Virus record (IMG/VR): IMGVR_UViG_3300018914_000025
Source of the DNA: a virus
Strand: one strand, 5' to 3'
Length of the DNA: 58,057 nucleotides
The translations under genes were made by a program, and so were the position numbers. A model generated the notes under the pieces. That model did not search any database and had not been told where the DNA came from. It saw only the letters and a program-made list of their open reading frames with translations. Positions 1 to 58,057 of the stretch are shown here, one piece after another; position 1 is the stretch's first letter; each line of letters opens with the position of its first letter.

Positions 1-127
1 AGCATTCTTCGCACAAGTATCTATGGACTTAGCCCATTCAATTTCCCTCCTAACTATTGTGTTTCGTCCACAATTCCAGCACATCCGTCACAAACATCAT
101 CCTGAGCAGCGCTATCGTCGAACTCAT
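1..127. repeat. Terminal direct repeat copy 1 (identical to 57931..58057); circular-assembly overlap
   Basis: Bases 1-127 recur base-for-base at 57931-58057 on direct reading. Confidence 0.95.
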
Positions 128-7828: not shown

Positions 7829-7838
7829 GGAGTGCCTC

Positions 7839-8903
7839 CTACAGCAGGGCCTTCAGCAGATGGCGCATGTGCTCATTCTGTGACGTGAGGGCCTCGATTT
7901 TACGGGTCAGGGAGTCGACAACCTCTTTGTACGACTCAATTTCGACTACATGACGCTTTTTGATTTCCTGCAGCTCGTCCTTCAAATGATCGAAGCTGAT
8001 CTTCTCACGATTAGTGGGGCCCGCACTCGTAGTTTCAGATACAGCATCCGCGCTTTTCTTCAACAGCCCCCATCGCTTCTTCGCGTGGTAGACGGCCGCT
8101 TTTGTGACGTTACATAGTTTCGATATTTCCGCATCGGTTTTTCCTTCCGCGACTAGTCGCTCCAGGGTTTCTTTCTCCAATTTGGCTTTTGCCACTTCTT
8201 CTTCTCCTTTCACTCCACGGTATCTATTCAGCAACTCTCCGATTCTAGCTACTATTCTGGAAATGTGAGCCTGTGAGACTCCCATTTCCTTTGAAATTTC
8301 GTCCTGCGTCATTCCTGACATTTTAAGCCGAATGACCTTCTGATCTCTTTCATTCAGCGTTTGTAGGAACTCTGATACAAAAACAGAGGAATAGTCCTCC
8401 TCCACCGGTATTGTGTTGTAGACACTCGTTTTTTCGTTGTCCAGATGTTCGGGAGCAGCGTCAGCATAGACCAGGTTAGAGGCTTTGATGTATTTAAGCG
8501 CCGCCTCCACTTCACACATTGGCCGAACCAACCGCTCGGAGATCTCTTCTGCGCTCATCGATTCAAGCCCCTGGAGTTTTATTTGATTGGCGACCTCGTA
8601 AACCGGTCGGGAGGGCCGTAATAAAGCTCCTTTGTCGCGTAGAAATCTTAGAACCTCCCCCTGGATCATCGGAACCGCGTAGGTGGAGAATCTCTTTACT
8701 CCTTCAAACAACGTCGGGTCGTATCTGTCAAACGCCCGGATCAGTCCGACGCACCCCTCGCTGTAAATCTCGTCGTAATCAATACCTAAAGCTGCAGCAC
8801 GTCGCCTGAACTTTTGCGCCACCATGTGAACCAGTTTGAGGTGAGAAGGAATCACCTCGTCCTTATAGCCCAGGTGCGGGTTATAATCACGAATCGCTGA
8901 CAC
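7839..8903 (-). CDS. Sigma-70 family sigma factor with a C-terminal extension (extra HTH plus coiled coil)
   Basis: Region 2-like FSTYAVPMIQGEVLRFLRD and region 4.2-like MTQDEISKEMGVSQAHISRIVARI. About 130 further residues contain KLCNVTKAAVYHAKKRWG and a heptad-like tail. Confidence 0.85.
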   Translation of the reverse strand: MSAIRDYNPHLGYKDEVIPSHLKLVHMVAQKFRRRAAALGIDYDEIYSEGCVGLIRAFDRYDPTLFEGVKRFSTYAVPMIQGEVLRFLRDKGALLRPSRPVYEVANQIKLQGLESMSAEEISERLVRPMCEVEAALKYIKASNLVYADAAPEHLDNEKTSVYNTIPVEEDYSSVFVSEFLQTLNERDQKVIRLKMSGMTQDEISKEMGVSQAHISRIVARIGELLNRYRGVKGEEEVAKAKLEKETLERLVAEGKTDAEISKLCNVTKAAVYHAKKRWGLLKKSADAVSETTSAGPTNREKISFDHLKDELQEIKKRHVVEIESYKEVVDSLTRKIEALTSQNEHMRHLLKALL

Positions 8904-8914
8904 GTACTCACCCC

Positions 8915-11900
8915 CTAGTACTCGTCATCTATCTGATCAAAGATCCCGAGCTCGAAGCACTTCGCCACATACGCATGGAATCGGGGCGTTTTCTTGAATC
9001 CTCCTGTTGTCTTGACCACCATCCGCATCTTTGTCAGCAGGTTCACGATCGCCTTTGCCTCTTCTTTCTCAATCGCGAGCATCGCCTCAACGTCGCTGAC
9101 ACCCAGGTAGTTCTGCTGGGCAAACAGCTTGATGAAGTCGTAGAACTTGCCGTCATGCTTCAGCGTTTTCAGTCCACGCATTTCCTGCGTGAAGCGCTCG
9201 TATCGCTCGTCTGTCATTTCTTCCTCGCGGATCGCGAGCCGTGCGTAGTAGTTCAGGCCGCAGCCCGGTGCGTTGTAGATCGACTGCAGGTATGCTTCGA
9301 TGAACTCCACATGCCCCGGCCACACCACAATCCGCTCTCCCGACTCATCCACGCTGTGCGTGAGCGCCGCGAGCGCTACCGCCAGCCGCGCTATCTTGTT
9401 CCGCTGATCGGAAGGCGACACCAGTGGCACGTCGTTTGCGTTGCCGTAGATTTTGGAGAGGTTCGTGGACACCTGCAGGATCCGCTCAATTGAGTCACCC
9501 GCAAACACCACGTCATCCGGTGTCCGGGACCAGGCGAACAGGATATTGTTTTTCAGTGCTTCGGCTGTGAACTTCTGCGGGTAGAACCCCAGCTGCGCGT
9601 TATACTTTTCGGGACCGACGTCCGACGCGCGCATGAAGATCGCGAAGTCAAAACGACGGATGTCCTCGTTATTGAAAATGTCCTTCAGTGACTCTACGCC
9701 GTGCCCGTAGTCCGCCAGGCGCCGCCCCTTCGGCACGTTTCCGGATAGAATCGCCCGCACCCGGCAAGGCGTCTCCGCCGTTACAGCGCGTTTTACTTCG
9801 AGCTTTCCGTCGCTGCGGGCCAGCGTCATTTCGCCGTACTCGTCTTTCGTGATACCGGTATCCTCGTCAATCCAGATCAGCTCCCGGTCTGCCAGCGGCC
9901 AAGCCCCCCACACGATATACCAGGCGCCGGATGCTCCCGACTGCTCCATCTTGTAGGTCAGGCCTGTCCGGCTCGTCGACTCGGCGTTTACCCGCTGACC
10001 CAGCCGCACGAAGTTCATGATCGATTCGATCAGGGCTGACTTTCCGGTTCCTGTGTCGCCCACGATTTTCCCCTCAACCCAGCCCCTGATCGCTGTTGAG
10101 CTCCACGGTACTTTGAACCGCAGCACACTATGATATGTGAGCAGAACACCGAGGAGTGTCTCATCGCGTTCCACGATCCGGGTCACGTTGTACGTCAGGT
10201 CATCGCATAGCGTTTTGAGCTTCTGCTCGATCATTTCAGGGGTGTAGTTCTCCGGCTGGAAGCTCCGCAGCTGAGATTTGATTTCGTCCGTCAGCTGGAA
10301 CGATTCGACCACATCCTGCATCGGGGTCGCGTCTTTTACGATGATCGTCGACTCCTGATTTTTCGGATGCGGGAACACGTAACCGGTGATCTCGTAGTAC
10401 TTGTTTTCGGAGAGGTCGATACCGCCCACGCTGTACACGCGCCGCAGCACGTATTTTCCGGTAGATGGGTTTTCCTCCACCCGATCGGGCTCGGCCATCG
10501 GAATCACCAGCAGCTCCTCGACGTTCGTGGTTTCCACTTGCTCGACGTTGTACTTGTAGCACGACGGGATCCCGGAGATCTCCTTCAGTATCCCTTTGAT
10601 GTTGTCGTCCCCGACTCCGCACATCTGGATCAGCTCACGATCCTGGACACCGAGGTCTTTGTATGCCGTGTGACTCGGAATGTCGTACAGAGGGCAGTGG
10701 GTCTTCTTGCATCCGTCCCGACCCCAGCAGTGGTACTCGATGCGTTTGGTGACGATGTACGGAGTGTGCTTCTTCCCGGCGATCATGACACGGGTTTTGA
10801 TCAGCTTGCCGGTGAGATCCGCGTCACCTGTTTGTGAAAGGTGCAGGTTGATCGGCGCCTCTTCCGTGTCTTTCTTCCGCTTCACACAGGGGCAAAGGTC
10901 GCCGGCGCACGCGACGCGCTCGTACTCGTTGCTCCCGGGTGTTTTGGGGCCGTGCAGGCTCCGGATGAACGCGCAGCCGAATCGGTACTCATTGTCCTTG
11001 GAGTACACCGCGTCCACCACGCTGCGGGTATTGGCGATGCGCTGCTGTTTCTGATAGTGGCTGTTCGCGCTGGTGTGTTTTACGACCCACTCTTCGAGGA
11101 TCTTCAGCGTCTCTTCCTTGCTGTGACCTGCGTCTTTGTAGTAGCAGGCCAACTGCACGGTCGCCTGATTTCGATCCCCTTCCTTCTTCCAGCCTCCGTT
11201 CATGATGTCCTGAACGCATACAGGGGGGACGCCTTTCGTGAAGTGATACTCTTCTTTTTCGTGGCGGGCGTTTGCTGTCGCGGCGACCTCCAGGTACTCA
11301 CCGCGTTTATCTTTATAGAATTCTGCGGCCTTCTCTCGGAGACCGATCAGTTCTTTTCGTTGCTCATCTGTAAAGGGCAGGTCACGACGCGGCGCTTTCG
11401 CCAGCTCTTGGATCTGCTCGATCGTCATGGTGTCGAGTTCGGTTTTGCTCAGTTCGATTTTGTGAAGATTCGTTTTTTGATGCACGCTGTTCGGAAGCCG
11501 CAGCATCCGGGCGGATGTGTAGACCACCATGTCCAGCGAGGTGAGTTCGAGCCGGTGAATCAAGTACCCGGCGATGTGCTTGAAAATCTTGTGCAGGTTG
11601 TTTGATGGTTGAATACCAAAAACGCTGTAACTGATCAGGATGTGGAAGCCTTTGCTTCCTGAGAAGTAAATCTGCATGTCGGACTCTTGGACATCCAGTT
11701 CGTTGAGAAAGAAGTGTACCAGCTTTCGTGCGTCCGCCAGGCTGACAGAAGGATCTTCTGCGTGATCAAGGTCGAAGTACAGGGGGGCGATGAACGCCTC
11801 CCCTTTCTCCCGCACCTTGTTTGCAAAGCGCTGGATGGTAGCGAAGCAGTTGTAGTTGAATGCCACTTTCTGCTGCCACTCGGGAACGGCCGACTTCTCG

Positions 11901-12001
11901 ATCCGCTCCCATTCCCCGTTGCTTTTGCCCATTTGATCCGTAAACCTGACGTCCACGTACTTGAAGTCTTGAAGTTGTGGTTCCTTTTTTGCCCTTGCCA
12001 C
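8915..12001 (-). CDS. Fusion of archaeo-eukaryotic primase (AEP/prim-pol) and MCM-like AAA+ helicase
   Basis: AEP motifs FDLDH and YFSGSKGFHILI; Cys clusters (CAGDLCPC, HCWGRDGCKKTHC); Walker A GDTGTGKS, Walker B LIWIDED, and RRFDF resembling the MCM SRFD arginine-finger motif. Confidence 0.8.
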   Translation of the reverse strand: MARAKKEPQLQDFKYVDVRFTDQMGKSNGEWERIEKSAVPEWQQKVAFNYNCFATIQRFANKVREKGEAFIAPLYFDLDHAEDPSVSLADARKLVHFFLNELDVQESDMQIYFSGSKGFHILISYSVFGIQPSNNLHKIFKHIAGYLIHRLELTSLDMVVYTSARMLRLPNSVHQKTNLHKIELSKTELDTMTIEQIQELAKAPRRDLPFTDEQRKELIGLREKAAEFYKDKRGEYLEVAATANARHEKEEYHFTKGVPPVCVQDIMNGGWKKEGDRNQATVQLACYYKDAGHSKEETLKILEEWVVKHTSANSHYQKQQRIANTRSVVDAVYSKDNEYRFGCAFIRSLHGPKTPGSNEYERVACAGDLCPCVKRKKDTEEAPINLHLSQTGDADLTGKLIKTRVMIAGKKHTPYIVTKRIEYHCWGRDGCKKTHCPLYDIPSHTAYKDLGVQDRELIQMCGVGDDNIKGILKEISGIPSCYKYNVEQVETTNVEELLVIPMAEPDRVEENPSTGKYVLRRVYSVGGIDLSENKYYEITGYVFPHPKNQESTIIVKDATPMQDVVESFQLTDEIKSQLRSFQPENYTPEMIEQKLKTLCDDLTYNVTRIVERDETLLGVLLTYHSVLRFKVPWSSTAIRGWVEGKIVGDTGTGKSALIESIMNFVRLGQRVNAESTSRTGLTYKMEQSGASGAWYIVWGAWPLADRELIWIDEDTGITKDEYGEMTLARSDGKLEVKRAVTAETPCRVRAILSGNVPKGRRLADYGHGVESLKDIFNNEDIRRFDFAIFMRASDVGPEKYNAQLGFYPQKFTAEALKNNILFAWSRTPDDVVFAGDSIERILQVSTNLSKIYGNANDVPLVSPSDQRNKIARLAVALAALTHSVDESGERIVVWPGHVEFIEAYLQSIYNAPGCGLNYYARLAIREEEMTDERYERFTQEMRGLKTLKHDGKFYDFIKLFAQQNYLGVSDVEAMLAIEKEEAKAIVNLLTKMRMVVKTTGGFKKTPRFHAYVAKCFELGIFDQIDDEY

Positions 12002-19902: not shown

Positions 19903-20100
19903 TTAAAAAAGATCAGGGAACAGCTCTTCCTCTGATTTATCGTAGAATTTCGCCAGCTGCTTACTGAGTGCCCTGCTCGGGTTTCGGGTCCCGGCTTCCA
20001 GTTTTCTCAGATAAATTTCTGAGATATGGAGAGCTTGCGCGGCCGATGCCTGACTCAGATTTCGATTCAATCGGGCTTTTTTTAACGCTTCCCGCCTCAT
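19903..20100 (-). CDS. XRE-family HTH protein (Cro-like position)
   Basis: LKKARLNRNLSQASAAQALHISEIYLRKLEAG; divergent from the cI-like gene. Confidence 0.8.
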   Translation of the reverse strand: MRREALKKARLNRNLSQASAAQALHISEIYLRKLEAGTRNPSRALSKQLAKFYDKSEEELFPDLF

Positions 20101-20145
20101 AGCACACCTCCCTAGCTACAAATTGTGAAAATAACACTAGAAAAC

Positions 20146-20160
20146 GATACAAAATGTATC
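20146..20160. promoter_or_regulatory. GATAC-N5-GTATC palindrome, site 7 (GATACaaaatGTATC) in the divergent switch region
   Basis: Perfect half-sites directly abutting a TATAAT hexamer (20161-20166), between the divergent XRE genes. Confidence 0.65.
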
Positions 20161-20200
20161 TATAATGATAATCATGTACACATTGATCGGAGGGCTTATC

Positions 20201-20527
20201 ATGTTAGGTCAAAGACTGAAGGAATTGCGTGGATCTCGTACACAAGATGAAATTGCGGAAAAACTGGAGATTCCAAGGGCTCGGTACAGTCATTACGAGA
20301 ATGAGCGTAACAAACCGGAGCCTGAAATGCTTATCAAAATGGCGCTGCTGTTTGATACCAGCATTGATTACTTACTGGGGCTTACTGAGGAACGGTTCCC
20401 GACTTACCGCACCGCCGCTCATGACGATCGCGCCCGAGAAGATCGGGAATTCGTTCAGATATTCATGAACTTGTCTCCTGAGAAGAAACAGGCTCTTGTT
20501 CACCTGGTTAAGACCTTTGCTTGTTGA
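20201..20527 (+). CDS. XRE-family HTH repressor (cI-like position)
   Basis: MLGQRLKELRGSRTQDEIAEKLEIPRARYSHYENERNKPEPEMLIKMALLFDTSIDYLLG; GGAGGG RBS before this ATG (ORF track starts at 20165). Confidence 0.8.
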   Translation: MLGQRLKELRGSRTQDEIAEKLEIPRARYSHYENERNKPEPEMLIKMALLFDTSIDYLLGLTEERFPTYRTAAHDDRAREDREFVQIFMNLSPEKKQALVHLVKTFAC

Positions 20528-20690
20528 TGTTCTCTTCGATAACTTGGAAGTTGATTTCCGGATGCAGCTTCTCTAGCTCGTCCATTTCCTCAAACAGAGA
20601 ATTCATCTTCGCTTTCAGTTCTTCGATTTTGGCACGGAGGTTATTAACCTCTGTGCTTTTTTGTATGTATGATGCGATCGCGTTCTCCAT
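20508..20690 (-). CDS. Small coiled-coil protein in the aimX-equivalent position
   Basis: MENAIASYIQKSTEVNNLRAKIEELKAKMNSLFEEMDELEKL... after a GGGGG RBS; its 3' end overlaps the cI-like gene 3' end by 20 nt (convergent). Confidence 0.4.
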   Translation of the reverse strand: MENAIASYIQKSTEVNNLRAKIEELKAKMNSLFEEMDELEKLHPEINFQVIEENINKQRS

Positions 20691-20771
20691 GTTCAACCCC
20701 CAAATATACGAACGACTGTTCGTGTTTCTATTATCTCTAGTTATTGGAAGATCGTCAACCAATTTTTTGAG

Positions 20772-20787
20772 TTAACGGTTCCGTTAA
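20772..20787. promoter_or_regulatory. Perfect palindrome TTAACGGttCCGTTAA
   Basis: 7+2+7 palindrome between the pro-peptide terminator and the small downstream ORF. Confidence 0.35.
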
Positions 20788-20811
20788 TCTATCTGTCTCT
20801 ATCGTAACCCC

Positions 20812-20848
20812 ACTTTCCATCTTTACAAATAGCTAGAAGATGGAAAGT
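20812..20848. promoter_or_regulatory. 10-bp inverted repeat ACTTTCCATC-N17-GATGGAAAGT (candidate receptor operator)
   Basis: Perfect 10-bp arms with a 17-nt spacer and no T-tract on either side; lies downstream of the pro-peptide terminator. Confidence 0.4.
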
Positions 20849-20874
20849 TTCGTCACTCTTCGACATATTGTTTT

Positions 20875-20909
20875 TCCCAAAAGAGGAAGCATCGTACCGC
20901 GATGCTTCC
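20875..20909 (-). terminator. Rho-independent terminator after the pro-peptide gene
   Basis: Stem GGAAGCATCG/CGATGCTTCC (10 bp, 5-nt loop) followed on the minus strand by TCTTTTGGG. Confidence 0.75.
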
Positions 20910-20923
20910 TCCGTTCGGACTTC

Positions 20924-21076
20924 TTACCAACCGGGCCCCTCTTGGTTTGTTGTTACCGGAGTAGGCTCAGTGATCGGAAGTGGTGCGACGCCCCAGCCAG
21001 GTCCTTCTTGTGCAGAAGCGCTGACCGGAATAACGAGCGCGATCGCAAACAATACGAAAATCAAAAGTTTTTTCAT
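20924..21076 (-). CDS. Secreted signalling pro-peptide (50 aa) with two QEGPGW copies
   Basis: Hand translation: MKKLLIFVLFAIALVIPVSASAQEGPGWGVAPLPITEPTPVTTNQEGPGW*. AGGTGG RBS; signal peptide with an ASA-type cleavage site; terminator downstream; 74 nt after the RRNPP-like receptor. It falls below the ORF-track size cutoff. Confidence 0.7.
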   Translation of the reverse strand: MKKLLIFVLFAIALVIPVSASAQEGPGWGVAPLPITEPTPVTTNQEGPGW

Positions 21077-21124
21077 ACGATGCTACCACCTATCATGTGA
21101 ACTTGTTTCATGAAAATAGTAAAC

Positions 21125-21139
21125 GATACAATAAGCATC
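21125..21139. promoter_or_regulatory. GATAC-N5-GTATC palindrome, site 8a (GATACaataaGCATC, one mismatch)
   Basis: Between the receptor stop and the pro-peptide start. Confidence 0.5.
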
Positions 21140-21150
21140 GGTCAATCTAG

Positions 21151-22497
21151 TTATACGATACAAATTGTATCGTACTTTCTCGCCCTTTCGTACTCCTCCA
21201 TGGCAAATGTACATCTATCGATCTGTGCAGGTGTCGCGAAAGTAATATTTTTCAATAAAAGCGTCACACATCGGATAGTAACCACCGGCATCTTAAACCG
21301 GGCGGACAAGTCAATAGCATACAGCAGATCCTCAATAGCTGACCCCCCCATGCCAACATGAAAAAAATACTTTGACCTGTAATACCTGAAGTATGCAATG
21401 TATTTCGCGCTTAGTGGGTCGTTAAGCGAATGCAGCTGTCTAATTTCCGCATCAAAATCCGATAAAAATGCTGGGATCTGTTCATACTTTTCAAAATTTA
21501 CAAGGGACTTAATTACAGTTGTCAAATTTCTGCAACGGTTCGGCTGTTGCTTAATAAAGGCCATCAAGGCTTCAATGTTTTCCGTGTTTCCCGCAGAAAT
21601 CTCCACCGTCATTCGATTGACTGCAGCAAGGGAGCTGTAGAGATCACTTACTCCTTTTGAATACTCATCGATCAGCGCTAACGCTGTTTTGAAATCCTTT
21701 TTCTCTTCTGACACAGCGCCTAGATAGAAAAGTGCGCCTGCATACGATTCGACGTCCATACCGACCGCAATTCCAGCTAATTCCTTTGCGTATTTTTCCA
21801 CACCGCTCCAATGTTCGATTGCGTAAAATACCGCTAGAACACGTAGGTAAGCCTCCGTTTGCATTAGACCTTTCAGGTGTTTTAAATACTCTGTGAGTTT
21901 AACAGCTGCCTCATAAGCCGTGATCAAGTCATGATCCCTGACTATTAAAAAACTTCGATAAAAACTGACAGCGAGGTCTGGAGACATCCGATTTGACTCT
22001 TTCTCTATGACTTTGTTATAAAACCGCAGCGCCTCGTCATGATGACCTTTTCCGAACAGCGACTCCGCGATGGCGAAGATGATGTCGAGGTTTCCAGGGA
22101 TGGCTGTAAGCTCATTCATGGCCTCTTCTACAAGATCCGTCAAACCCAGCTCGTAGCATCGTACCACGAACTCCTCTGTTTTTTTGCGCAGCCGCTTCCC
22201 TCCCTTCCCCCAACACTCACCACTGAACAGGTGGTAAAAATACCCGGGTGGAAGTTCCAGCGCCTCTGTGACTGCATCCAGGACCTCCAGCGAGAATGTA
22301 CGACTGCCTCCCAGCATGCGGCTCAGATCCGACTGGCTCACATTTTTCTGCGCGGCAATGGAGACAGGCGACACCCCTCTTTCTCGCATCGCGTTTGTGA
22401 TTTCCTCCCGTAACGTGCTGTATCGGCGGTCACTCGTTAACGTCATCCCCAAAACAAAAAACCCCCTCGCTTGCCATCTTGTACACACATTATACAA
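21151..22497 (-). CDS. RRNPP-family (AimR/NprR/PlcR-like) peptide receptor: N-terminal HTH plus TPR-like repeats
   Basis: N-terminal XRE-type HTH (VSPVSIAAQKNVSQSDLSRMLGGSRTFSLEVLDAVTEAL), then about 370 aa of helix-repeat sequence rich in A/L/Y/E. The pro-peptide gene lies immediately downstream. The real start may be the internal MTLTSDRR (22446). Confidence 0.75.
   Translation of the reverse strand: MYNVCTRWQARGFFVLGMTLTSDRRYSTLREEITNAMRERGVSPVSIAAQKNVSQSDLSRMLGGSRTFSLEVLDAVTEALELPPGYFYHLFSGECWGKGGKRLRKKTEEFVVRCYELGLTDLVEEAMNELTAIPGNLDIIFAIAESLFGKGHHDEALRFYNKVIEKESNRMSPDLAVSFYRSFLIVRDHDLITAYEAAVKLTEYLKHLKGLMQTEAYLRVLAVFYAIEHWSGVEKYAKELAGIAVGMDVESYAGALFYLGAVSEEKKDFKTALALIDEYSKGVSDLYSSLAAVNRMTVEISAGNTENIEALMAFIKQQPNRCRNLTTVIKSLVNFEKYEQIPAFLSDFDAEIRQLHSLNDPLSAKYIAYFRYYRSKYFFHVGMGGSAIEDLLYAIDLSARFKMPVVTIRCVTLLLKNITFATPAQIDRCTFAMEEYERARKYDTICIV
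21157..21171. promoter_or_regulatory. GATAC-N5-GTATC palindrome, site 8b (GATACaaattGTATC)
   Basis: Perfect half-sites with extended arms TACGATAC..GTATCGTA; overlaps the last receptor codons (..DTICIV*). Confidence 0.6.
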
Positions 22498-22590
22498 GTG
22501 GCAATTGTTTACGAAAAGGGGTTTTTGCTCAAATGAAAAATATTTTTATCCTCATTCGTGAATACGAACGCCGTTTTTTCGTTTTTGTCT

Positions 22591-23328
22591 CTACCTTTTC
22601 AGCGTTTTCCGTACGGTCCCGACGCGATCGTCGGCCACTTTGATCCGGTTTCCGTTCGCGTCATCCGTGAAAGTGATCGTCTGGTCAAAACTGTGGTACT
22701 GGTCTATTTTGCTCAGGTTCGCGATGCAGGACCGGGACACTGTGATGAACCCGTGAGGCTCCAGATAGCCGCTGTACTGCCGCAGGGAAATGTCGGAAGG
22801 GTACACGTCTGCAGTGGTGTGGACGGTGATCTCCCGAGCTTTTGACTGGATGAACAGCACGTCGTCGATCGGCAGCTGCTGGACGGTCTCCCCTGCCACA
22901 GGAACATACACGCACCCGGCCGCTTCGAACCGGTCGTACATCAGTCGGCGCTGCACCCGCTGCAGAGCCCCCGGCAACGGGCTGTGATCATCGTACAGGT
23001 CGGTCTTGTCCACCACCTGGACCACCCCGATCTGCCGCAGTTCTGCCTGGTCTACAGCGTTTGTGTCCATCGTGACGACGATTGCCGGCATGCGGCCGCC
23101 GGATTTACGATACAACCTGTAGACGTCAAGTCCGGTCATACTGTCCTCATCCAGCTGGATGTCGAGGATCACAGCATCAAAATCTTCCGGTCGGTCTTCG
23201 ACGATCGCAAAGAACTCCCTCGAATTCCGTGCGATGTCAAACTGCTTGATCCCCAGCTGTTCAAGAAAGGCGGTTATTAACTTCTGGTGTGCAGGGTTGT
23301 CCTCCAGCACCAGGATTCGAAGATCCAT
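22591..23328 (-). CDS. Response regulator with LytTR DNA-binding domain (AgrA/ComE-like)
   Basis: Receiver domain (LVLEDN, AVILDIQL aspartate pocket) plus C-terminal LytTR-like LPIDDVLFIQSKAREITVHT...FITVSRSCIANLSKI. Confidence 0.9.
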   Translation of the reverse strand: MDLRILVLEDNPAHQKLITAFLEQLGIKQFDIARNSREFFAIVEDRPEDFDAVILDIQLDEDSMTGLDVYRLYRKSGGRMPAIVVTMDTNAVDQAELRQIGVVQVVDKTDLYDDHSPLPGALQRVQRRLMYDRFEAAGCVYVPVAGETVQQLPIDDVLFIQSKAREITVHTTADVYPSDISLRQYSGYLEPHGFITVSRSCIANLSKIDQYHSFDQTITFTDDANGNRIKVADDRVGTVRKTLKR

Positions 23329-23374
23329 CGCGATCCCTCCGGTTTATTAACTAAAAATAAATGACGACACTATG

Positions 23375-23389
23375 ATTGTACGATACAAT
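23375..23389. promoter_or_regulatory. Palindrome ATTGTAcgaTACAAT in a divergent intergenic region
   Basis: 6+3+6 palindrome between the response-regulator gene and the XRE gene at 23424. Confidence 0.35.
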
Positions 23390-23423: not shown

Positions 23424-23660
23424 ATGCCCTATAGAGTAGGCCGGTGCCTGCTTGGATTGCGTCTCGCAGAGGCTGGGATGACCCCTGTACAACTCGCTGA
23501 AAAGGTTGGCATGAAACTTCCACAGATCTCGGCTTACATAAACAACAAACGGGTCATGTCCCTGCAGAACGCCCTGTCGATCGCGAGCGCCGTCGGCTGT
23601 CGTGTTGAAGATCTCTACGAGTTAGAGTACGTCAGCCCCAGAACCAAGCAGGAACCCTAA
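23424..23660 (+). CDS. XRE-family HTH protein
   Basis: LGLRLAEAGMTPVQLAEKVGMKLPQISAYINNKRVMSLQNALSIASAVG; GGGAGG RBS. Confidence 0.75.
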   Translation: MPYRVGRCLLGLRLAEAGMTPVQLAEKVGMKLPQISAYINNKRVMSLQNALSIASAVGCRVEDLYELEYVSPRTKQEP

Positions 23661-24290: not shown

Positions 24291-25232
24291 ATGTTGCAAC
24301 AACCACGCAAGCTCAAACGATTGGTCATCAAGGAGGAATTCCTGCAGCTCACCGGTGATTACATATCGGCGATCATCCTGCACCAATTCCTCTACTGGTC
24401 GAACTACGTCTACGAGGCTGACAAACTGGCGCTCGCTCAGTGGGAAAAAGAAAAAGCCGGCGGGCGCGAAACGAAAAAGCCCGAGATGCGGAACGGCTGG
24501 GTCTGGAAGAGCGCAAAGGAAATGAACGAGGAACTGTTGGAGATCGCCAGTGACAAAACGATCGAGCGCCGGATCAAAGGTTTGATCGAGCTCGGTGTGC
24601 TGGAGACCAGAAAAAATCCGAATAACCAGTGGGACAAGACCCTACAGTACCGGGTGCTGATCCCTGAACTTCAAAGGAAGCTGCAAGAGCTGGGTTACGC
24701 GCTGGAAGGATACCCGCTGCTCGTAGAATCTGCGCCGTTACCGAATCGTCAGGATGACGAATCGATTCAGAACGATGTTGACGAATCGATTGGACAGGAT
24801 GACGAATCAGTCGGACAACCTGTCTCCCCCATTGGACAAAATGACGAATCAATTGGACAGAATGACGAAGCAATAACAAATATTACTTCAAAAAGAACTA
24901 CAAAAGAGTCTTTCAAAAAATCTTTTGATGATGAATTAAATAAAAAAGAGGGGCAGGCCCCTCCCCCTGTTCGGCAGCTGAACGAAAAAATCATAAGCGC
25001 CTTTGAGGAAGTCGCGTTTACCCGTGGTTTTCCGCGAAAGTTCTTCCCGCAGGTTCGAGAAGCCTTGCTGCAGGCTGATTTCCTGCATGAATTCAGCGTG
25101 CTGTCTACAGCCTTAAACAAAACGATAAAAGCGATCGAGTCTGGATCCTGCACCGACCCGGCGGCCTACCTCCTAAAAGTTCTGGATAGCGATTACGATT
25201 CGTTCCGCCGATTGATGGGAGATCAGGTATAG
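24291..25232 (+). CDS. Putative replication initiator/organiser (winged-helix-like N-terminus, DESIGQ repeat linker)
   Basis: First gene after the DnaA-box/AT-rich element; carries internal 21-bp DNA iterons; N-terminus (..IERRIKGLIELGVLETRKNP..) looks like a wHTH. No catalytic motif recognised. Confidence 0.5.
   Translation: MLQQPRKLKRLVIKEEFLQLTGDYISAIILHQFLYWSNYVYEADKLALAQWEKEKAGGRETKKPEMRNGWVWKSAKEMNEELLEIASDKTIERRIKGLIELGVLETRKNPNNQWDKTLQYRVLIPELQRKLQELGYALEGYPLLVESAPLPNRQDDESIQNDVDESIGQDDESVGQPVSPIGQNDESIGQNDEAITNITSKRTTKESFKKSFDDELNKKEGQAPPPVRQLNEKIISAFEEVAFTRGFPRKFFPQVREALLQADFLHEFSVLSTALNKTIKAIESGSCTDPAAYLLKVLDSDYDSFRRLMGDQV
24756..24880. repeat. Iteron array inside the initiator-like gene (GACGAATCrrTyGGACA)
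   Basis: Copies start at 24756, 24780, 24801, 24843 and (degenerate) 24864, with a half-copy at 24831. Spacing is 24/21/42/21 bp. Confidence 0.75.
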
Positions 25233-28698: not shown

Positions 28699-29715
28699 AT
28701 GATAGTTTTGGGGATCGACCACGGAAATGGAAATGTAAAGGGGTACAGCGCGGAAAAATCACTGCTGCTTCCGTCTGCTTACGCAAGACCAGAGGACTTC
28801 AGCGAGGAGGGGCTGGCAAAGAAAGAATTGGACCTGCATCAGTATAGCTCCGCTAAGTTTGAAGGGGAGACCTATCTGTGGGGCAAAGATGTGCTGGAGG
28901 CTAGCAAGCTCATTACTACATACGCAGCTCAAAATCGATATGCGGAAAAGTCGTACCGACTGCTTTCCGAGTTTGCGATCGCGTCTTTGCTGCCTTCAGG
29001 GCAAGGGAACACTTTTGACAATGTAATGCTGGTAACAGGCTGCCCAAGCCGTGAGAAGGGGACTAAATCGGAAGAGAATCTGAAAAACGTATTCGCTGGC
29101 GGTCATGTGGTAAAGGTTGACGGGCGCGATTTGGTCATCCATGTAACAAGCGTTGTTGTTCTCCCACAGCCTCTTGGAACGGTGGCGTCGTTGTATCTTG
29201 ATGTCCAGGGTTACGTTCTCGACGATAGCTACGAGGAGAGCTATGTAGCCGTCATCGACATCGGCAGTGGCACCACGGACATCGACGGCATCAAAGCGCT
29301 GAATCGTCAAATCGAGGATACCGATACTATTCCGATGGGCATGTTTGATGCTTATCAAAAGATTGCAGATTACGTCAATGATCAAATGCCGGAGGCGCTG
29401 GCGACGCCTGACAAAGTGGAGCGTCAAATTCTGAATGGCTCCGATTCGTATAAAGTTAGCCAACGAGCAAGTGTAGATATAACTGACATCAAATCGAAGG
29501 CGTTCCGAGAGCTTGCTGAGGATCTGACCAACGGCATAAACAAACGCTGGAAAAATCGGGCGAAGTTTGACAAACTGCTGCTCACTGGAGGCGGTGCGAA
29601 ACCGCTGGCTGACCACTTCAAGAATTGGGATAAAGATGTAATCGTAGTGGAGAATGCACAGCAAGCAAACGCCGCAGGGTTTTATCGATACGGAGTCATG
29701 ATGGCTAGGGGGTAA
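28699..29715 (+). CDS. parM: ParM/StbA-like actin-fold partition ATPase
   Basis: Phosphate-1 VLGIDHGNGNVKG, phosphate-2 VIDIGSGTTD, adenosine-motif LLLTGGGA; GGAGGGG RBS before this ATG. Confidence 0.85.
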   Translation: MIVLGIDHGNGNVKGYSAEKSLLLPSAYARPEDFSEEGLAKKELDLHQYSSAKFEGETYLWGKDVLEASKLITTYAAQNRYAEKSYRLLSEFAIASLLPSGQGNTFDNVMLVTGCPSREKGTKSEENLKNVFAGGHVVKVDGRDLVIHVTSVVVLPQPLGTVASLYLDVQGYVLDDSYEESYVAVIDIGSGTTDIDGIKALNRQIEDTDTIPMGMFDAYQKIADYVNDQMPEALATPDKVERQILNGSDSYKVSQRASVDITDIKSKAFRELAEDLTNGINKRWKNRAKFDKLLLTGGGAKPLADHFKNWDKDVIVVENAQQANAAGFYRYGVMMARG

Positions 29716-29718
29716 ATT

Positions 29719-29949
29719 ATGGCAAATCGCATTTACCAACTATCATTGAATGAGGATCTCGATAAGGACATACTGGAGATCTTGGACTCGTTGCCGCGAT
29801 CCCGAAAAGCTGAATGGGTCCGGCAAATGATTCGAAACGGGATGAAGCTTGAAAGAGGGGAACTGGCGGTAGTCCCCGCTGTACAGCCAACAATAAACCC
29901 AGATCCGCCGGTCCAGAAAAAGAAGGGGAAGCCCTTTGGAATAGAATAA
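29719..29949 (+). CDS. ParR-like ribbon-helix-helix partition adaptor, tentative
   Basis: 76-aa ORF 3 nt after parM; N-terminus RIYQLSLNEDLDKDILEIL fits a beta-strand plus helix; basic tail. Confidence 0.55.
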   Translation: MANRIYQLSLNEDLDKDILEILDSLPRSRKAEWVRQMIRNGMKLERGELAVVPAVQPTINPDPPVQKKKGKPFGIE

Positions 29950-29954
29950 GTCCT

Positions 29955-29985
29955 GAAACCCGGATCTCCCCGGGTTTTTTCTTTT
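29955..29985 (+). terminator. Rho-independent terminator after the partition genes
   Basis: GAAACCCGG..CCGGGTTT hairpin followed by TTTTTCTTTTTC. Confidence 0.8.
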
Positions 29986-30064
29986 TCAAAAATTGATGCA
30001 CTTTCGACAAAATTCGAGTATATTCGATATTGTTATTAACTTCGCGGAGGCGTTAACCTACAGC

Positions 30065-31405
30065 ATGAATATACTCAATTTTTTGTTCATTGCAGTGCCA
30101 GAAGGGCTAGTTTCAATCGCGCTGGGGATGTCCGTGTTCAACATGTCGGTAAGACAAAACGTGAAGGGGTGGCTTGCTGCAGGTGTTTTGTTCGGGGGCG
30201 GCAGCTTCACTCTGACAGCGATGCACGTTCCATATGAGCCGAAAATCTTCACGTTGTTCCTGTACTTGTGCCTGCTGGTGTACATCCTCGTCGTACGCAA
30301 GGTGTGGCTTGCTGTATTGATCTCCTGTACGGCGTACGCCGCGGTGAATGCCGCTGAGTTCATCATCCTGGAGGCGTTCAACGTATTCCGGATCAGCCTC
30401 GATGCGATCCTGGCGAATCCCGTGTACCTGTATTTGGCTGTATGGTCTTATCTCTTCATCCTACTCACCGTGACAATCGTTCTCCGAAAACTCCGCTTCG
30501 ACCTGCAAAACCTGTTTCCCAAGAAAGAGATCAACCGCTATCTGCTGTGGATGGTGTTGGCCGGGGGAGTGGAATTTTTCATCCTGTCAGTCCTTCTTAC
30601 TCGATACTTCCTGCAGCAAACGAACACATCAAGCATGCTCACAGTACTGAACGTCCCGGTACTGCTTGTAACGAGTTTTGTGCTCTTCATCGCGTTGATC
30701 TTCCTGTTCCGCAAGTACCTGATGCTGACCGTCGACAGGGCCGTGGAAGAGGCCGAGGCTCCGTACACGAAAAACCTGACCGATCTCTCTATTGCAGTCC
30801 GATCGATCAAACACGACTCCATGTCGCACTACCAGACGATCCTGGGATTCATCAAGCTGCGGCGGTATGACATGGTGGAAGAATACATACGGCACCTCGC
30901 TGACGAGGCCCGTGACCTGATCAAGATTGTGCAGGAGGTAAAAAACCCGGTTGTCGCAGCGCTGTTGTACGGGAAAATGCAACAGTTTACAGCTAATCAG
31001 ATCGACTTCCAGGTCCGGATACAAGAGGGCATTTCCCAGCTGGAGGGCTGGCGCGACATCGACATCGCCAAGGTGCTGGGGAACCTGCTGGATAACGCCG
31101 TGATGGCCGCTCTGAAGGTCGACGAGAGTGTCCGGTATATCCGGATGGAATGGGGCGTTGTCGGAGGGGATGAGTACCTGTACATCGAAAACAGTGGGCC
31201 GACGATCGGCCCCGATCAACTGGACCGGATCTTCGACCTCGGCTATACGACCCGCGAGTCGGGAAGGGGAGGGGTAGGCCTGGCTGTCGTAAAGGCCGTC
31301 GTCACCAAGTACAAGGGGACCGTCAAAGTTCGCTCGGAAGACGGACTGACGAGCTTCACAATCACAGTCCCAGCTGGGGAGAAAACAAAAACCGCTTCGG
31401 CATAG
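30065..31405 (+). CDS. AgrC/ComD-like (HPK10-type) membrane sensor histidine kinase
   Basis: About 6 predicted TM helices; H-box SIKHDSMSHYQTILGFI, N-box LGNLLDNAVMAA, G-box GRGGVGLAVVKAVV. Start at MNILNF after GCGGAGG (ORF track starts at 29993). Confidence 0.9.
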   Translation: MNILNFLFIAVPEGLVSIALGMSVFNMSVRQNVKGWLAAGVLFGGGSFTLTAMHVPYEPKIFTLFLYLCLLVYILVVRKVWLAVLISCTAYAAVNAAEFIILEAFNVFRISLDAILANPVYLYLAVWSYLFILLTVTIVLRKLRFDLQNLFPKKEINRYLLWMVLAGGVEFFILSVLLTRYFLQQTNTSSMLTVLNVPVLLVTSFVLFIALIFLFRKYLMLTVDRAVEEAEAPYTKNLTDLSIAVRSIKHDSMSHYQTILGFIKLRRYDMVEEYIRHLADEARDLIKIVQEVKNPVVAALLYGKMQQFTANQIDFQVRIQEGISQLEGWRDIDIAKVLGNLLDNAVMAALKVDESVRYIRMEWGVVGGDEYLYIENSGPTIGPDQLDRIFDLGYTTRESGRGGVGLAVVKAVVTKYKGTVKVRSEDGLTSFTITVPAGEKTKTASA

Positions 31406-31420: not shown

Positions 31421-31762
31421 TCAAGTCTTTTCGACTTTCACGATTCGGGCAACGTCAATCCACCAGAAATCGTCATCGTTTACCAGCTTGATCTGCCGGC
31501 GAGAGGCGTCAATACGCTGTACCCATCCCCACGCGCGCTCAATGCGGCCAAGGTGCCCTTTGATCGGCTTGAACCAAGAGACGCTCACCGCGAAGTCGTG
31601 CCGCACCGAATCGTACAGCGTGAGGTTCATTTCGGCGAGCTCGTCGTCCTCCAGGATAGGCTGCGTGACCAGCGTCTTTTCATAAGCATGCTGCGCGAGC
31701 GCTTCGGCATGCTCCGGAAGGAAAAAGGCCATCGAGCCGAAGATGTCATCAATTTTTCCCAT
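31421..31762 (-). CDS. YolD-like protein
   Basis: FFLPEHAEAL...PILEDDELAEMNLTLYDS...VSVSWF...GRIERAWGWVQRID...IKLVND...IDVARIVKVE matches the YolD-like pattern. Confidence 0.6.
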   Translation of the reverse strand: MGKIDDIFGSMAFFLPEHAEALAQHAYEKTLVTQPILEDDELAEMNLTLYDSVRHDFAVSVSWFKPIKGHLGRIERAWGWVQRIDASRRQIKLVNDDDFWWIDVARIVKVEKT

Positions 31763-57802: not shown

Positions 57803-57946
57803 TTACCGCTGTGTTAAATTTGACCGTTCCTCATCTGCTCCACGCGATTTCATGTCTTTGCCACAATCAGGGCATTCGATTACGATCACGCTTACAGCAG
57901 TTGAACTTCCCCTCACCTTGAGGGAAACCCAGCATTCTTCGCACAA
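57803..57946 (-). CDS. Small zinc-ribbon ORF (CEEC...CPDC), TTG start, tentative
   Basis: Hand translation: (M)CEECWVSLKVRGSSTAVSVIVIECPDCGKDMKSRGADEERSNLTQR*; start and RBS are weak. Confidence 0.25.
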   Translation of the reverse strand: MCEECWVSLKVRGSSTAVSVIVIECPDCGKDMKSRGADEERSNLTQR

Positions 57947-58057
57947 GTATCTATGGACTTAGCCCATTCAATTTCCCTCCTAACTATTGTGTTTCGTCCA
58001 CAATTCCAGCACATCCGTCACAAACATCATCCTGAGCAGCGCTATCGTCGAACTCAT
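57931..58057. repeat. Terminal direct repeat copy 2 (identical to 1..127)
   Basis: Direct comparison with bases 1-127. Confidence 0.95.

What the first reader, a model, noticed from the sequence alone, without database searches (positions are those of the whole stretch)
30065..31405. Orphan AgrC-like histidine kinase with no agrB/agrD in the replicon: possible eavesdropping on a host autoinducing peptide
The ORF has about six N-terminal TM helices and an HPK10-type core: H-box SIKHDSMSHYQ, N-box LGNLLDNAV and G-box GRGGVGLAV. This is the AgrC/ComD sensor class, which detects extracellular peptides. No AgrB-like membrane peptidase or AgrD-like precursor was found anywhere in the 57.9 kb. The ligand would therefore have to come from the host or its neighbours. 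The gene sits just after the ParM/ParR-like operon, behind its own terminator, and not next to its likely LytTR partner.
Basis: partly seen in the sequence, partly recalled or inferred. Interest (0 to 1): 0.72.

Follow-up and report, generated by a model that had tools for sequence, protein, structure and literature searches.

The report
Phage-plasmid carries receptor-only AgrC kinase
A circular 57.9-kb Brevibacillus virus that also behaves as a plasmid carries an intact peptide-pheromone receptor kinase without the genes that make the pheromone, so it most likely listens to its host's quorum signal when deciding what to do.

Summary
The ORF is real: 30065-31405 (+), 446 aa, about seven membrane helices fused to an intact kinase core. 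No agrB or agrD lies anywhere in the replicon, which is a circular 57,930-bp myovirus-type phage-plasmid.

Profiles call the core SPOB_a + HATPase_c. Its closest relatives (35-47% identity) are Brevibacillus chromosomal kinases, nearly all in an agrC-agrB-agrD cluster between hprK and uvrAB.

New findings:
- Orphan copies of this kinase occupy the same slot in other Brevibacillus phage-plasmids: behind the partition genes and, in most of them, beside yolD and the lysis genes.
- The window's kinase is a chimera. Its catalytic domain belongs to the phage-plasmid lineage. Its sensor domain clusters with chromosomal AgrCs whose AgrD peptides carry a Cys ring.
- The LytTR response regulator, 6.7 kb away, sits in the lysis-lysogeny switch region. 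Directly downstream lies an arbitrium-like receptor and a secreted propeptide. It co-occurs with the kinase in 3 of 4 fully read replicons.

Eavesdropping on a host peptide is the best-supported reading, but the ligand, the partner and the output are all inferred. I rate it a new variant of a known kind, interest about 0.7.

The parts
30065..31405 (+). Orphan AgrC-type sensor histidine kinase, 446 aa. Residues 1-215 form a 7-TM sensor, about 216-300 a helical linker plus Spo0B-like DHp (H250), and 301-446 the catalytic ATP-binding domain.
   Evidence: Chimera analysis.
29955..29988 (+). Terminator-like hairpin plus T-run that closes the parM/parR operon upstream of the kinase.
30004..30033 (+). 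Promoter-like site (TCGACA-N16/18-GATATT/TATTGT). It is overlapped by three TTCGA repeats at exact 10-bp spacing (30003, 30013, 30023). GGAGG lies at 30046-30050.
   Evidence: This is a consensus match only, and the repeats are not conserved in relatives.
22591..23328 (-). LytTR-family response regulator, 245 aa, with a canonical receiver domain. It is the likely phospho-acceptor of the kinase.
   Evidence: It co-occurs with the kinase on the HD3.3A and S8 phage-plasmids.
21151..22452 (-). HTH + TPR protein, 433 aa, with RRNPP/AimR-like architecture. It starts 138 bp downstream of the response regulator on the same strand.
20924..21076 (-). 50-aa propeptide with a Sec signal sequence and the hexapeptide QEGPGW twice, once at the C-terminus. 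This is arbitrium/Phr-like.
21154..21174 (.). Perfect 21-bp palindrome TACGATACAA-T-TTGTATCGTA upstream of the propeptide gene. The half-site recurs at 20143, 21122, 23106 and 23379, so this is a candidate operator of the switch region.
   Evidence: 9 matches against 2 expected; 6 of them in 20.1-23.4 kb.
28699..29949 (+). ParM-like actin ATPase (28699-29715) and a ParR-like 76-aa protein (29719-29949). This is the plasmid partition module directly upstream of the kinase.
31421..31762 (-). YolD-like gene convergent with the kinase. It marks the right border of the slot where the kinase sits in related phage-plasmids.

Best explanation
The gene encodes a functional membrane receptor kinase of the Brevibacillus AgrC lineage. 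It is carried as a receptor-only module on a circular myovirus-type phage-plasmid. The element makes no AgrB or AgrD. I therefore infer that the 7-TM sensor binds a cyclic autoinducing peptide made by the Brevibacillus host population, most likely the Cys-ring class (ring C-[I/M/V]-x-x-L) produced by the clade whose AgrC sensors it resembles.

I infer that ligand binding changes autophosphorylation at H250. I infer that the phosphate then goes to the element's own LytTR response regulator (22591-23328), which sits in the lysis-lysogeny switch region in line with an arbitrium-like receptor and propeptide. On this reading the element would combine 'how many hosts are around' (host AIP) with 'how many of my own kind are around' (its own peptide). 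It would use both to set lysogeny maintenance, induction or copy number.

Shown here:
- the anatomy of the protein;
- family membership by context;
- absence of agrBD;
- the chimeric origin of the kinase;
- conservation of the slot and of the HK + RR pair across related elements.

Inferred:
- the ligand;
- HK-to-RR phosphotransfer;
- the regulatory output.
For: 1. The kinase is intact. All 53 family-invariant residues are retained, including H250, N340, N344, the G1 and G2 boxes.

2. The 7-TM sensor is continuous with the DHp helix, as in AgrC.

3. Homologues at 35-47% identity are almost all chromosomal Brevibacillus genes followed by AgrB (PF04647) and a 41-50-aa AgrD-like ORF.

4. No agrB or agrD occurs in the window or in three related phage-plasmids.

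5. Domain trees disagree with each other.
   - For the sensor, the sister clade is chromosomal in 299 of 300 bootstraps.
   - For the catalytic domain, the kinase groups with phage-plasmid kinases in 259 of 300.
   - It also shares with the phage-plasmid group a one-residue insertion and a C-terminal tail.

6. Sensor identity to Cys-class hosts is 33-46%, against 26-31% to Lys-class hosts. Chromosomal pairs with identical predicted rings can be as low as 41% identical in the sensor, so 46% does not exclude a shared ligand.

7. The best sensor match, P0003, comes from ENA analysis ERZ27286114. The phage contig is in ERZ27286111.

8. The same architecture occurs on two plasmids: cro/cI, HTH-TPR, LytTR RR, then Rep, FtsK, partition genes and the kinase. 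These are NZ_CP085875.1 and the circular NZ_CP150492.1. On NZ_CP150492.1 the partition system is TubZ-type, yet the kinase keeps its slot.

9. Kinase and regulator divergence run in parallel across the three elements: 42/41/49% for the kinase and 34/35/49% for the regulator.
Against: - No experiment and no expression data are available.
- The sensor is only 44-46% identical to the nearest host AgrC. In staphylococci such divergence usually means a different specificity (my own knowledge of agr groups).
- The other phage-plasmid kinases have sensors only about 30% identical to the AgrC of their own host species, for example the S8-type kinase against B. borstelensis AgrC.
- One complete relative, DP1.3A, keeps the regulator, receptor and peptide but has no kinase. 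The regulator therefore does not strictly need this kinase.
- Kinase and regulator are 6.7 kb apart and in separate transcription units.
- The element makes a secreted peptide of its own that could in principle be the ligand.
- The host of this particular contig is not established.
Confidence: 0.5

Rival explanations
1. Host manipulation (lysogenic conversion). The kinase plugs into the host's agr regulon rather than the phage's own circuitry. It would phosphorylate or dephosphorylate the unidentified host regulator used by the chromosomal AgrC, or act as a sink for AIP. Carriers would then respond differently to quorum signals in sporulation, motility or secondary metabolism.
For: - Brevibacillus chromosomal agrCBD loci have no adjacent response regulator, so the host partner is unlinked and could be shared.
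- The DHp region of the window kinase is about equally similar to chromosomal and phage-plasmid kinases.
- The gene looks like a moron. It has its own terminator and promoter and sits among plasmid-maintenance genes likely expressed in the carrier state.
- The precedent, phiCDHM1, carries agr genes and was proposed to influence host behaviour (PMC3901668).
Against: - A LytTR regulator is conserved on the same elements and lies in the switch region.
- The catalytic domain, and in the other elements the DHp as well, form a phage-plasmid-specific lineage. This suggests long co-evolution with an element-borne partner.
Confidence: 0.2
2. Closed phage-to-phage loop. The kinase senses the element's own Sec-exported peptide (QEGPGW type) from outside the cell, in parallel with the intracellular HTH-TPR receptor. 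Nothing would be eavesdropped from the host.
For: - The propeptide, HTH-TPR and LytTR genes are contiguous, and a regulator needs a kinase.
- Kinase and peptide module co-occur in the window and in S8.
- Sensor domains of the phage-plasmid kinases are hypervariable, and so are the peptides: EGPGW, DGPGW, DIGERP.
Against: - The window's sensor is phylogenetically a chromosomal AgrC sensor, a type that goes with AgrB-processed AgrD peptides.
- DP1.3A has a near-identical peptide type (EDGPGW) and receptor but no kinase.
- No signal-peptide propeptide was found next to the HD3.3A receptor, although that element has a kinase.
- An HTH + TPR protein with an adjacent propeptide is by itself the complete architecture of an RRNPP system (PMC10075063).
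Confidence: 0.1
3. The kinase senses a non-peptide cue such as membrane or envelope stress, a lipid or a metabolite. Its relation to agr is only ancestral.
For: - The phage-plasmid clade's sensors are far from any host AgrC, at 19-43% identity.
- The kinases in the chromosomal slots of L044 and L045 also lack AgrB, so kinases of this family can exist without a linked pheromone.
Against: - The window's sensor specifically regroups with agr-linked sensors.
- Sensor identity tracks AgrD ring identity across the family.
Confidence: 0.1
4. The gene is a passenger, a recently captured fragment of a host agr locus with no function for the element.
For: - It has chromosomal relatives.
- It is accessory, since it is absent from DP1.3A.
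Against: - All catalytic and family-invariant residues are intact.
- The catalytic domain belongs to a lineage found on at least four other phage-plasmid-type contigs or plasmids, in the same slot next to different partition systems.
- The element was recovered with 100% identity from several metagenomes.
Confidence: 0.05

Closest known systems
Chromosomal AgrC of the Brevibacillus agrC-agrB-agrD locus (for example B. humidisoli CP087263.1, Brevibacillus sp. H7, B. agri)
   Same: Homologous over the full length at 35-47% identity. It shares the same 7-TM sensor, the SPOB_a + HATPase_c/HATPase_c_5 core and the invariant residues.
   Different: The window's copy has no agrB or agrD beside it. 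It sits on a phage-plasmid between the partition and lysis modules. It is a chimera of a chromosomal-type sensor with a phage-plasmid-type catalytic domain.
agr3 genes of Clostridioides difficile phage phiCDHM1 (Hargreaves et al. 2014, PMC3901668)
   Same: A temperate myovirus carrying an AgrC-type kinase that was apparently acquired from the host.
   Different: phiCDHM1 carries agrD + agrB + agrC and no regulator, so it can 'talk'. This element carries only the receptor plus a LytTR regulator, so it can only 'listen'. No detectable similarity appeared in the phage collection at E <= 1e-5.
Phage-encoded receptors for host autoinducers: VqmA-Phi of vibriophage VP882 and LuxR of Aeromonas phage ARM81ld (reviewed in PMC7790227; the protein names and the plasmid-like lifestyle are from my own knowledge)
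   Same: The logic is the same. A plasmid-like prophage carries a receptor without the synthase and could tie lysis-lysogeny to host density.
   Different: Those are cytoplasmic one-component transcription factors for small molecules in Gram-negative hosts. This is a membrane two-component kinase for a presumed peptide in a Gram-positive host, and it is not homologous to them.
Staphylococcus aureus AgrC (PDB 6e52, 4bxi)
   Same: A polytopic sensor joined by a continuous helix to DHp-CA. Among PDB sequences, only 6e52 aligns across both DHp and CA (residues 224-413, E 2.5e-4). The AgrC chimeras 6e52/6e95 have the highest query TM-scores among the 50 listed fold hits (0.35-0.36).
   Different: Sequence similarity is marginal. 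Here the DHp is Spo0B/CitA-like and the ATP-binding domain has a full set of canonical boxes. The gene order in the host genus is C-B-D with no agrA.
CitA/DcuS/MalK kinases
   Same: These are the best NCBIfam hits for the cytoplasmic half (residues 244-439, 107 bits), and they share the SPOB_a-type DHp.
   Different: The score is far below the family cut-off (107 against 520). There is no periplasmic Cache/PAS sensor. Instead there is a 7-TM sensor, and the neighbourhood regulator is LytTR rather than CitB-type.

Membership tests
AgrC-type quorum-sensing receptor kinase | Polytopic (6-7 TM) N-terminal sensor with no large extracytoplasmic domain, joined by a helix to the DHp | tested here: met
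   There are seven hydrophobic helices in residues 2-215. The helix at 197-264 is continuous into the DHp. Sensor pLDDT is mostly 80-92.
AgrC-type quorum-sensing receptor kinase | Intact phospho-accepting His and ATP-binding boxes | tested here: met
   H250, N340/N344, ENSGPTI and GGVGL lie in invariant columns of a 17-sequence family alignment.
AgrC-type quorum-sensing receptor kinase | HPK10-type core: profile match to HATPase_c_5 rather than canonical HATPase_c, and a non-HisKA DHp | tested here: inconclusive
   HATPase_c scores 60.8 bits, HATPase_c_5 43.8 bits and SPOB_a 34.2 bits. The DHp alone hits only Spo0B, at E 0.07. The agr-linked chromosomal relatives give the same mixed pattern.
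AgrC-type quorum-sensing receptor kinase | Genetic linkage to agrB and agrD | tested here: not met
   This feature fails for this gene. No PF04647 hit and no tblastn hit occur in the replicon. It is met for the family: about 28 of 33 loci have AgrB directly downstream, and an AgrD-like ORF follows in 23 of the 25 loci checked.
AgrC-type quorum-sensing receptor kinase | LytTR-family partner response regulator | tested here: inconclusive
   A LytTR regulator lies in the same replicon, 6.7 kb away. Regulator and kinase co-occur on 3 of 4 fully read related replicons. Phosphotransfer was not testable.
AgrC-type quorum-sensing receptor kinase | Ligand is an AgrB-processed cyclic peptide | not testable with these tools
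   The only evidence is indirect. The sensor clusters with kinases whose cognate AgrD carries a Cys ring.
CitA/DcuS/MalK sensor kinases | Whole-protein score above the NCBIfam cut-off, and a periplasmic Cache/PAS sensor between two TM helices | tested here: not met
   The score is 107.5 bits against a cut-off of 520, and the match covers only residues 244-439. No PAS or Cache domain is found, and there are 7 TM helices.
Phage-plasmid | Circular replicon with virion, lysis and packaging genes plus plasmid partition and replication genes, and no requirement for integration | tested here: met
   - Phage genes: portal, MuF, capsid, sheath, baseplate, terminase, M23 lysin.
- Plasmid genes: ParM/ParR, a Rep-like gene, FtsK, Replic_Relax.
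- The only recombinase is a 185-aa resolvase.
- A 127-bp end overlap and independent assemblies that cross both junctions show circularity.
- Relatives are deposited as circular plasmids.
RRNPP/arbitrium-type system (neighbouring module) | HTH + TPR receptor next to a small secreted propeptide whose C-terminus is the signal | tested here: inconclusive
   - HTH and TPR hits are sub-threshold.
- The model is all-helical, with only generic TPR fold matches and no AimR/NprR hit.
- The propeptide has a signal sequence and a duplicated C-terminal hexapeptide. This layout is conserved in two relatives with different hexapeptides.

The most novel reading that the evidence does not exclude
Brevibacillus phage-plasmids form a lineage that has domesticated a receptor-only AgrC/LytTR two-component system. 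Its sensor domain is exchanged by recombination with host agrC alleles to track the pheromone dialect of the current host. The element would then compute its lysis-lysogeny or copy-number decision from two extracellular peptides at once: the host's AIP through the membrane kinase, and its own arbitrium-like hexapeptide through the cytoplasmic HTH-TPR receptor. As far as I could find, this would be the first membrane two-component eavesdropping device described in a virus of Gram-positive bacteria.
Probability: 0.3. Interest if true: 0.85.

Novelty: new variant of a known kind. Interest (0 to 1): 0.7.

Why it matters
Viruses that read bacterial quorum signals are known from a few Gram-negative cases that use cytoplasmic receptors. 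Phage-to-phage peptide signalling (arbitrium) is known in Bacilli. The only agr genes reported on a phage (phiCDHM1) include the signal-making genes, and their role is still unknown.

A receptor-only AgrC kinase with a LytTR regulator wired into the switch region, beside an arbitrium-like system, would show something new. It would mean a single element can listen both to its host and to its own kind.

The system is directly testable with isolates that already exist. Brevibacillus sp. HD3.3A and B. borstelensis S8 carry related plasmids. The chimeric sensor also suggests a simple evolutionary route, domain swapping with host agrC, by which such elements could retune to new hosts.

Tried and rejected
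- Nucleotide search of 20 kb of the window against 50,697 phage records found no match.
- Protein search of the kinase against the same phages found only four partial catalytic-domain hits.
- A regex scan for AgrD-like motifs ([CS]x4-6 EPxP) in all six frames gave only hits inside long ORFs or out of context.
- My first two NJ scripts failed. In one, NaN distances from the Kimura correction gave meaningless clades. The other crashed on empty sets. Only one search is used.
- Fold search of the HTH-TPR model gave generic TPR superhelices (LGN, OGT) and no AimR, NprR or PlcR. The RRNPP assignment therefore rests on architecture and the propeptide only.
- Fold search of the kinase model found no match for the sensor domain, only cytoplasmic kinase domains.
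- The PADLOC scan found no defence-system membership for the kinase, regulator or YolD.
- Host assignment failed.
  - P0005 comes from an unrelated JGI project.
  - P0023, from a sibling JGI sample, has a Lys-class AgrD and only 33% sensor identity.
  - P0003 is linked to the phage contig only by neighbouring ENA accession numbers.
- The TTCGA x3 repeat upstream of the kinase is not conserved in relatives, so I rejected it as a regulator site.
- The CitA/DcuS classification suggested by NCBIfam was rejected, because only the core matches and the score is far below the cut-off.
Full report
**1. The observation**

The ORF at 30065-31405 (+) is real and encodes 446 aa. Homologues start at the same methionine, and a GGAGG lies 14 nt upstream.

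Pfam finds SPOB_a at residues 234-288, HATPase_c at 333-437 (60.8 bits) and, overlapping it, HATPase_c_5 (43.8 bits). They fall in invariant columns of a 17-member family alignment: K249-H250-D251, N340/N344, E375-I381 and G402-L406.

Hydropathy gives about seven hydrophobic segments in residues 1-215. An AlphaFold model built on the family alignment has mean pLDDT 79, with sensor blocks mostly 80-92. It shows helices at 2-24, 30-52, 57-76, 80-107, 119-142, 155-186 and 197-264. The last helix runs without a break into the DHp.

A terminator-like hairpin at 29955-29978 follows the parR-like gene. A promoter-like site at 30004-30033 precedes the kinase.

**2. The replicon**

Pre-computed gene calls and Pfam hits for the same contig cover nearly the whole window. 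The one uncovered stretch, about 17.8-20.1 kb, holds only an AAA/SMC-like ORF and small ORFs. The genes fall into these groups:
- Replication and transcription: DNA polymerase A, primase-MCM, a sigma factor, a cytosine methylase.
- Virion, packaging and lysis: small terminase, portal, MuF, capsid, sheath, baseplate, an M23 lysin.
- Plasmid functions: ParM/ParR, a Rep-like protein (PHROG replication-initiator hits), FtsK/SpoIIIE, Replic_Relax.
- Recombination: only a 185-aa resolvase.

The window's ends overlap by 127 bp, and independent assemblies cross both junctions. The molecule is therefore a 57,930-bp circle. It is a myovirus-type phage-plasmid.

No gene has an AgrB hit. tblastn of two Brevibacillus AgrB and two AgrD sequences against all six frames gave nothing better than E about 0.9.

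**3. What family the kinase belongs to**

A search of 5.8 billion proteins returned, apart from the identical sequence, about 48 full-length or fragmentary relatives at 35-47% identity. All named ones but two are labelled Brevibacillus.

Every chromosomal locus I opened has the same layout: hprK | kinase - AgrB (PF04647) - small ORF | holin - HD - uvrA - uvrB. In a scan of one genome per GTDB species, 33 loci encode a relative. About 28 of them have this layout.

The small ORFs are AgrD-like, for example MLKKFAVLSCSFFALLSSMNLMGIMCMNSLHEPKPPHLRGE. The family is therefore agrC in the functional-genomic sense.

By sequence profile, however, it is not a textbook HPK10 kinase. The best NCBIfam match is the cytoplasmic half of DcuS/MalK, at 107 bits against a cut-off of 520. 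The DHp alone matches only Spo0B in the PDB. S. aureus AgrC (6e52) matches at E 2.5e-4, although it is the only PDB sequence that aligns across both DHp and CA. The agr-linked chromosomal relatives give the same mixed Pfam pattern. The label is thus a property of the lineage, not a reason to doubt the phage copy.

**4. A phage-plasmid clade of orphan kinases**

Four homologues (P0021, P0022, P0025, P0031) share 58-61% identity with the window's catalytic domain but only 19-26% with its sensor. A fifth, P0026, groups with them in the catalytic-domain tree at 50% identity, with 23% in the sensor.

- P0031 (B. centrosporus) lies on a 32-kb contig. The gene order is Rep-like, FtsK, HTH, ParM-like, ParR-like, kinase, integrase, YolD, lysin.
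- P0022 (B. reuszeri NIT02) lies on a 31-kb contig with Replic_Relax (73% identity), FtsK (63%) and YolD relatives of the window's genes.
- tblastn against PLSDB found full-length copies on two plasmids. These are NZ_CP085875.1 (Brevibacillus sp. HD3.3A, 61.6 kb, kinase like P0021) and NZ_CP150492.1 (B. borstelensis S8, 64.2 kb, circular, kinase like P0026).

Both plasmids are phage-plasmids with tail, baseplate, tape-measure, portal, terminase and lysis genes. Both have the window's regulatory layout: cro/cI-like HTH pair, an HTH regulator of 405-417 aa, a LytTR regulator, an HTH, then Rep, FtsK and partition genes, and last the kinase.

On S8 the partition system is tubulin-like rather than ParM, yet the kinase occupies the same slot next to yolD. 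None of these elements has agrB or agrD.

A fourth complete relative, NZ_CP085877.1 (DP1.3A, 44.6 kb, circular), has the LytTR regulator (59% identity to the window's) and the HTH-TPR protein (47%). It has no kinase between parR and yolD or anywhere else.

**5. The window's kinase is a chimera**

NJ trees with 300 bootstraps were computed separately by domain.
- For the sensor (residues 1-205), the sister group is purely chromosomal in 299 of 300 replicates. The kinase never groups with the phage-plasmid kinases. The nearest clade is P0002/3/5/6/8/L015.
- For the catalytic domain (301-446), the window groups with the phage-plasmid kinases in 259 of 300 replicates.

The alignment shows shared derived characters with that group: a one-residue insertion before the N-box and a C-terminal tail (AGEKTKTASA against AEKGSQK...). 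Sliding-window identity places the switch between residues about 210 and 300.

The chromosomal clade that donated the sensor type has Cys-ring AgrDs: CISNL, CMNSL, CVGEL. Sensor identity to Cys-class kinases is 33-46%, against 26-31% to Lys-class kinases.

Across chromosomal pairs, sensor identity rises with the number of identical ring residues. Pairs with identical predicted rings can still be only 41-50% identical in the sensor. The 44-46% seen here therefore neither proves nor excludes a shared ligand.

**6. The likely partner and its surroundings**

The LytTR regulator (22591-23328, -) has a canonical receiver domain and a LytTR domain. Its only close relatives are on the DP1.3A phage-plasmid and a short metagenomic contig. 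A phage family of unknown function, phrog_8810, matches it end to end.

It lies in what looks like the switch region. The genes, in window order, are:
- a cro-like gene at 19903-20100 (-);
- a cI-like gene at 20201-20527 (+);
- a 60-aa ORF at 20508-20690 (-);
- a 50-aa propeptide at 20924-21076 (-);
- a 433-aa HTH+TPR protein at 21151-22452 (-);
- the regulator itself;
- a divergent HTH at 23424-23660 (+).

The propeptide has a Sec-type signal sequence and carries QEGPGW twice, once at the C-terminus. DP1.3A has EDGPGW twice and S8 has DIGERP twice. That is the architecture of RRNPP/arbitrium systems. The fold search, though, returned only generic TPR proteins.

The motif TACGATACAA occurs 9 times against 2 expected. 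Six occurrences lie in 20.1-23.4 kb. They include a perfect 21-bp palindrome just upstream of the propeptide gene and a site in the regulator/HTH intergenic region.

Kinase and regulator divergence run in parallel across the three elements that have both: 42/41/49% and 34/35/49%. The element backbone shows the same pattern (FtsK 63/66/75%), so this is weak evidence for a specific pairing.

**7. Mechanism**

The best-supported reading is that the kinase is a receptor for a peptide the element does not make. That peptide is most probably a host AIP of the Cys class. The kinase would then signal through the element's LytTR regulator into the switch region, alongside the element's own peptide system.

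Shown here are the anatomy, the family context, the absence of agrBD, the chimeric origin, and the conserved slot and co-occurrence. Inferred are the ligand, the phosphotransfer and the output.

The main caveats are these:
- Sensor identity to any host AgrC is modest.
- The sister phage-plasmid kinases have sensors unlike their own hosts' AgrC.
- One relative has the regulator but no kinase.
- The element has a secreted peptide of its own.
- The host of this contig is unknown. P0003, the best sensor match, comes from ENA analysis ERZ27286114 and the phage from ERZ27286111, which is suggestive only.

**8. Comparison with what is known**

The only phage agr genes in the literature I could search are those of phiCDHM1. 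It carries agrD, agrB and agrC but no regulator, and was proposed to signal to the host community (PMC3901668; PMC7790227).

Receptor-only eavesdropping is reviewed for phage-encoded cytoplasmic receptors in Gram-negative hosts (PMC7790227). 'Eavesdropper' RRNPP receptors without propeptides have been inferred on mobile elements (PMC9765709).

Four targeted full-text searches found no description of a phage- or phage-plasmid-borne receptor-only AgrC/LytTR system, nor of these Brevibacillus elements. The phage sequence collection holds no relative of the kinase. I therefore rate it a new variant of a known kind.

**9. Verdict**

It is strengthened by the family context, the conserved phage-plasmid slot and the chimeric sensor, but it remains functionally untested. 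Interest is 0.7.

Noticed in passing
window 20924-22452 (-): An arbitrium-like module sits directly downstream of the LytTR gene. It consists of a 433-aa HTH+TPR protein and a 50-aa Sec-signal propeptide carrying QEGPGW twice. Related phage-plasmids have the same layout with EDGPGW x2 (DP1.3A) and DIGERP x2 (S8). The fold search gave only generic TPR matches.
   Followed up: partly
window 20143-23388, palindrome at 21154-21174: The motif TACGATACAA is over-represented, with 9 matches against 2 expected. Six matches cluster in the switch region. They include a perfect 21-bp palindrome upstream of the propeptide gene, and sites in the cro/cI and regulator/HTH intergenic regions. This is a candidate operator for an unidentified regulator.
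   Followed up: partly
L002, L023-L026, L029-L031, L034-L037, L039, L042, L060 (downstream of AgrB): Many Brevibacillus chromosomal AgrD peptides have Lys where the ring-forming Cys or Ser should be (for example ...AGVLKGGFL|YEPIPP). Another clade has the usual Cys (...GIMCISNL|HEPKPP). A Lys at that position would imply a lactam-type or linear AIP. I know of no description of this.
   Followed up: partly
L001-L003, L009-L011, L015-L047: The Brevibacillus agr locus has the order agrC-agrB-agrD. It is wedged between hprK and a holin-HD-uvrAB block, with no response regulator beside it. The host partner of AgrC is therefore unlinked and unknown.
   Followed up: partly
L056 (NZ_CP085877.1, Brevibacillus sp. 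DP1.3A plasmid): This is a complete 44.6-kb circular phage-plasmid with the LytTR regulator, HTH-TPR receptor and propeptide but no histidine kinase at all. Its regulator must be orphan, or served by a host kinase, possibly the host AgrC.
   Followed up: partly
window 1-127 and 57931-58057: The two ends of the window are identical over 127 bp, an assembly overlap. Independent contigs span both junctions, so the replicon is a 57,930-bp circle.
   Followed up: yes
window 20001-22000: GC content drops to 0.43 here, against about 0.54 for the replicon. The dip lies over the propeptide/receptor region and suggests a module of foreign origin or under different constraints.
   Followed up: no
window 30003-30027: Three TTCGA pentamers at exact 10-bp spacing overlap the promoter-like site upstream of the kinase. 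The repeat is not conserved upstream of the kinase in HD3.3A, S8, L014 or L022. HD3.3A and S8 instead share an AACACTA...TAGTGTT-like element there.
   Followed up: partly
L044, L045 (chromosomal hprK-kinase-holin slot): Two chromosomal loci keep a divergent kinase of this family (31-35% identity) in the conserved slot but lack AgrB. B. ginsengisoli has a second kinase elsewhere on the same contig, with AgrB upstream of it (L041).
   Followed up: no
window 7839-8903 (-) and 5447-12001 (-): The phage-plasmid encodes its own sigma-70-family factor (354 aa) next to DNA polymerase A and a primase-MCM fusion, in addition to a plasmid-type Rep-like protein at 24291-25232.
   Followed up: no
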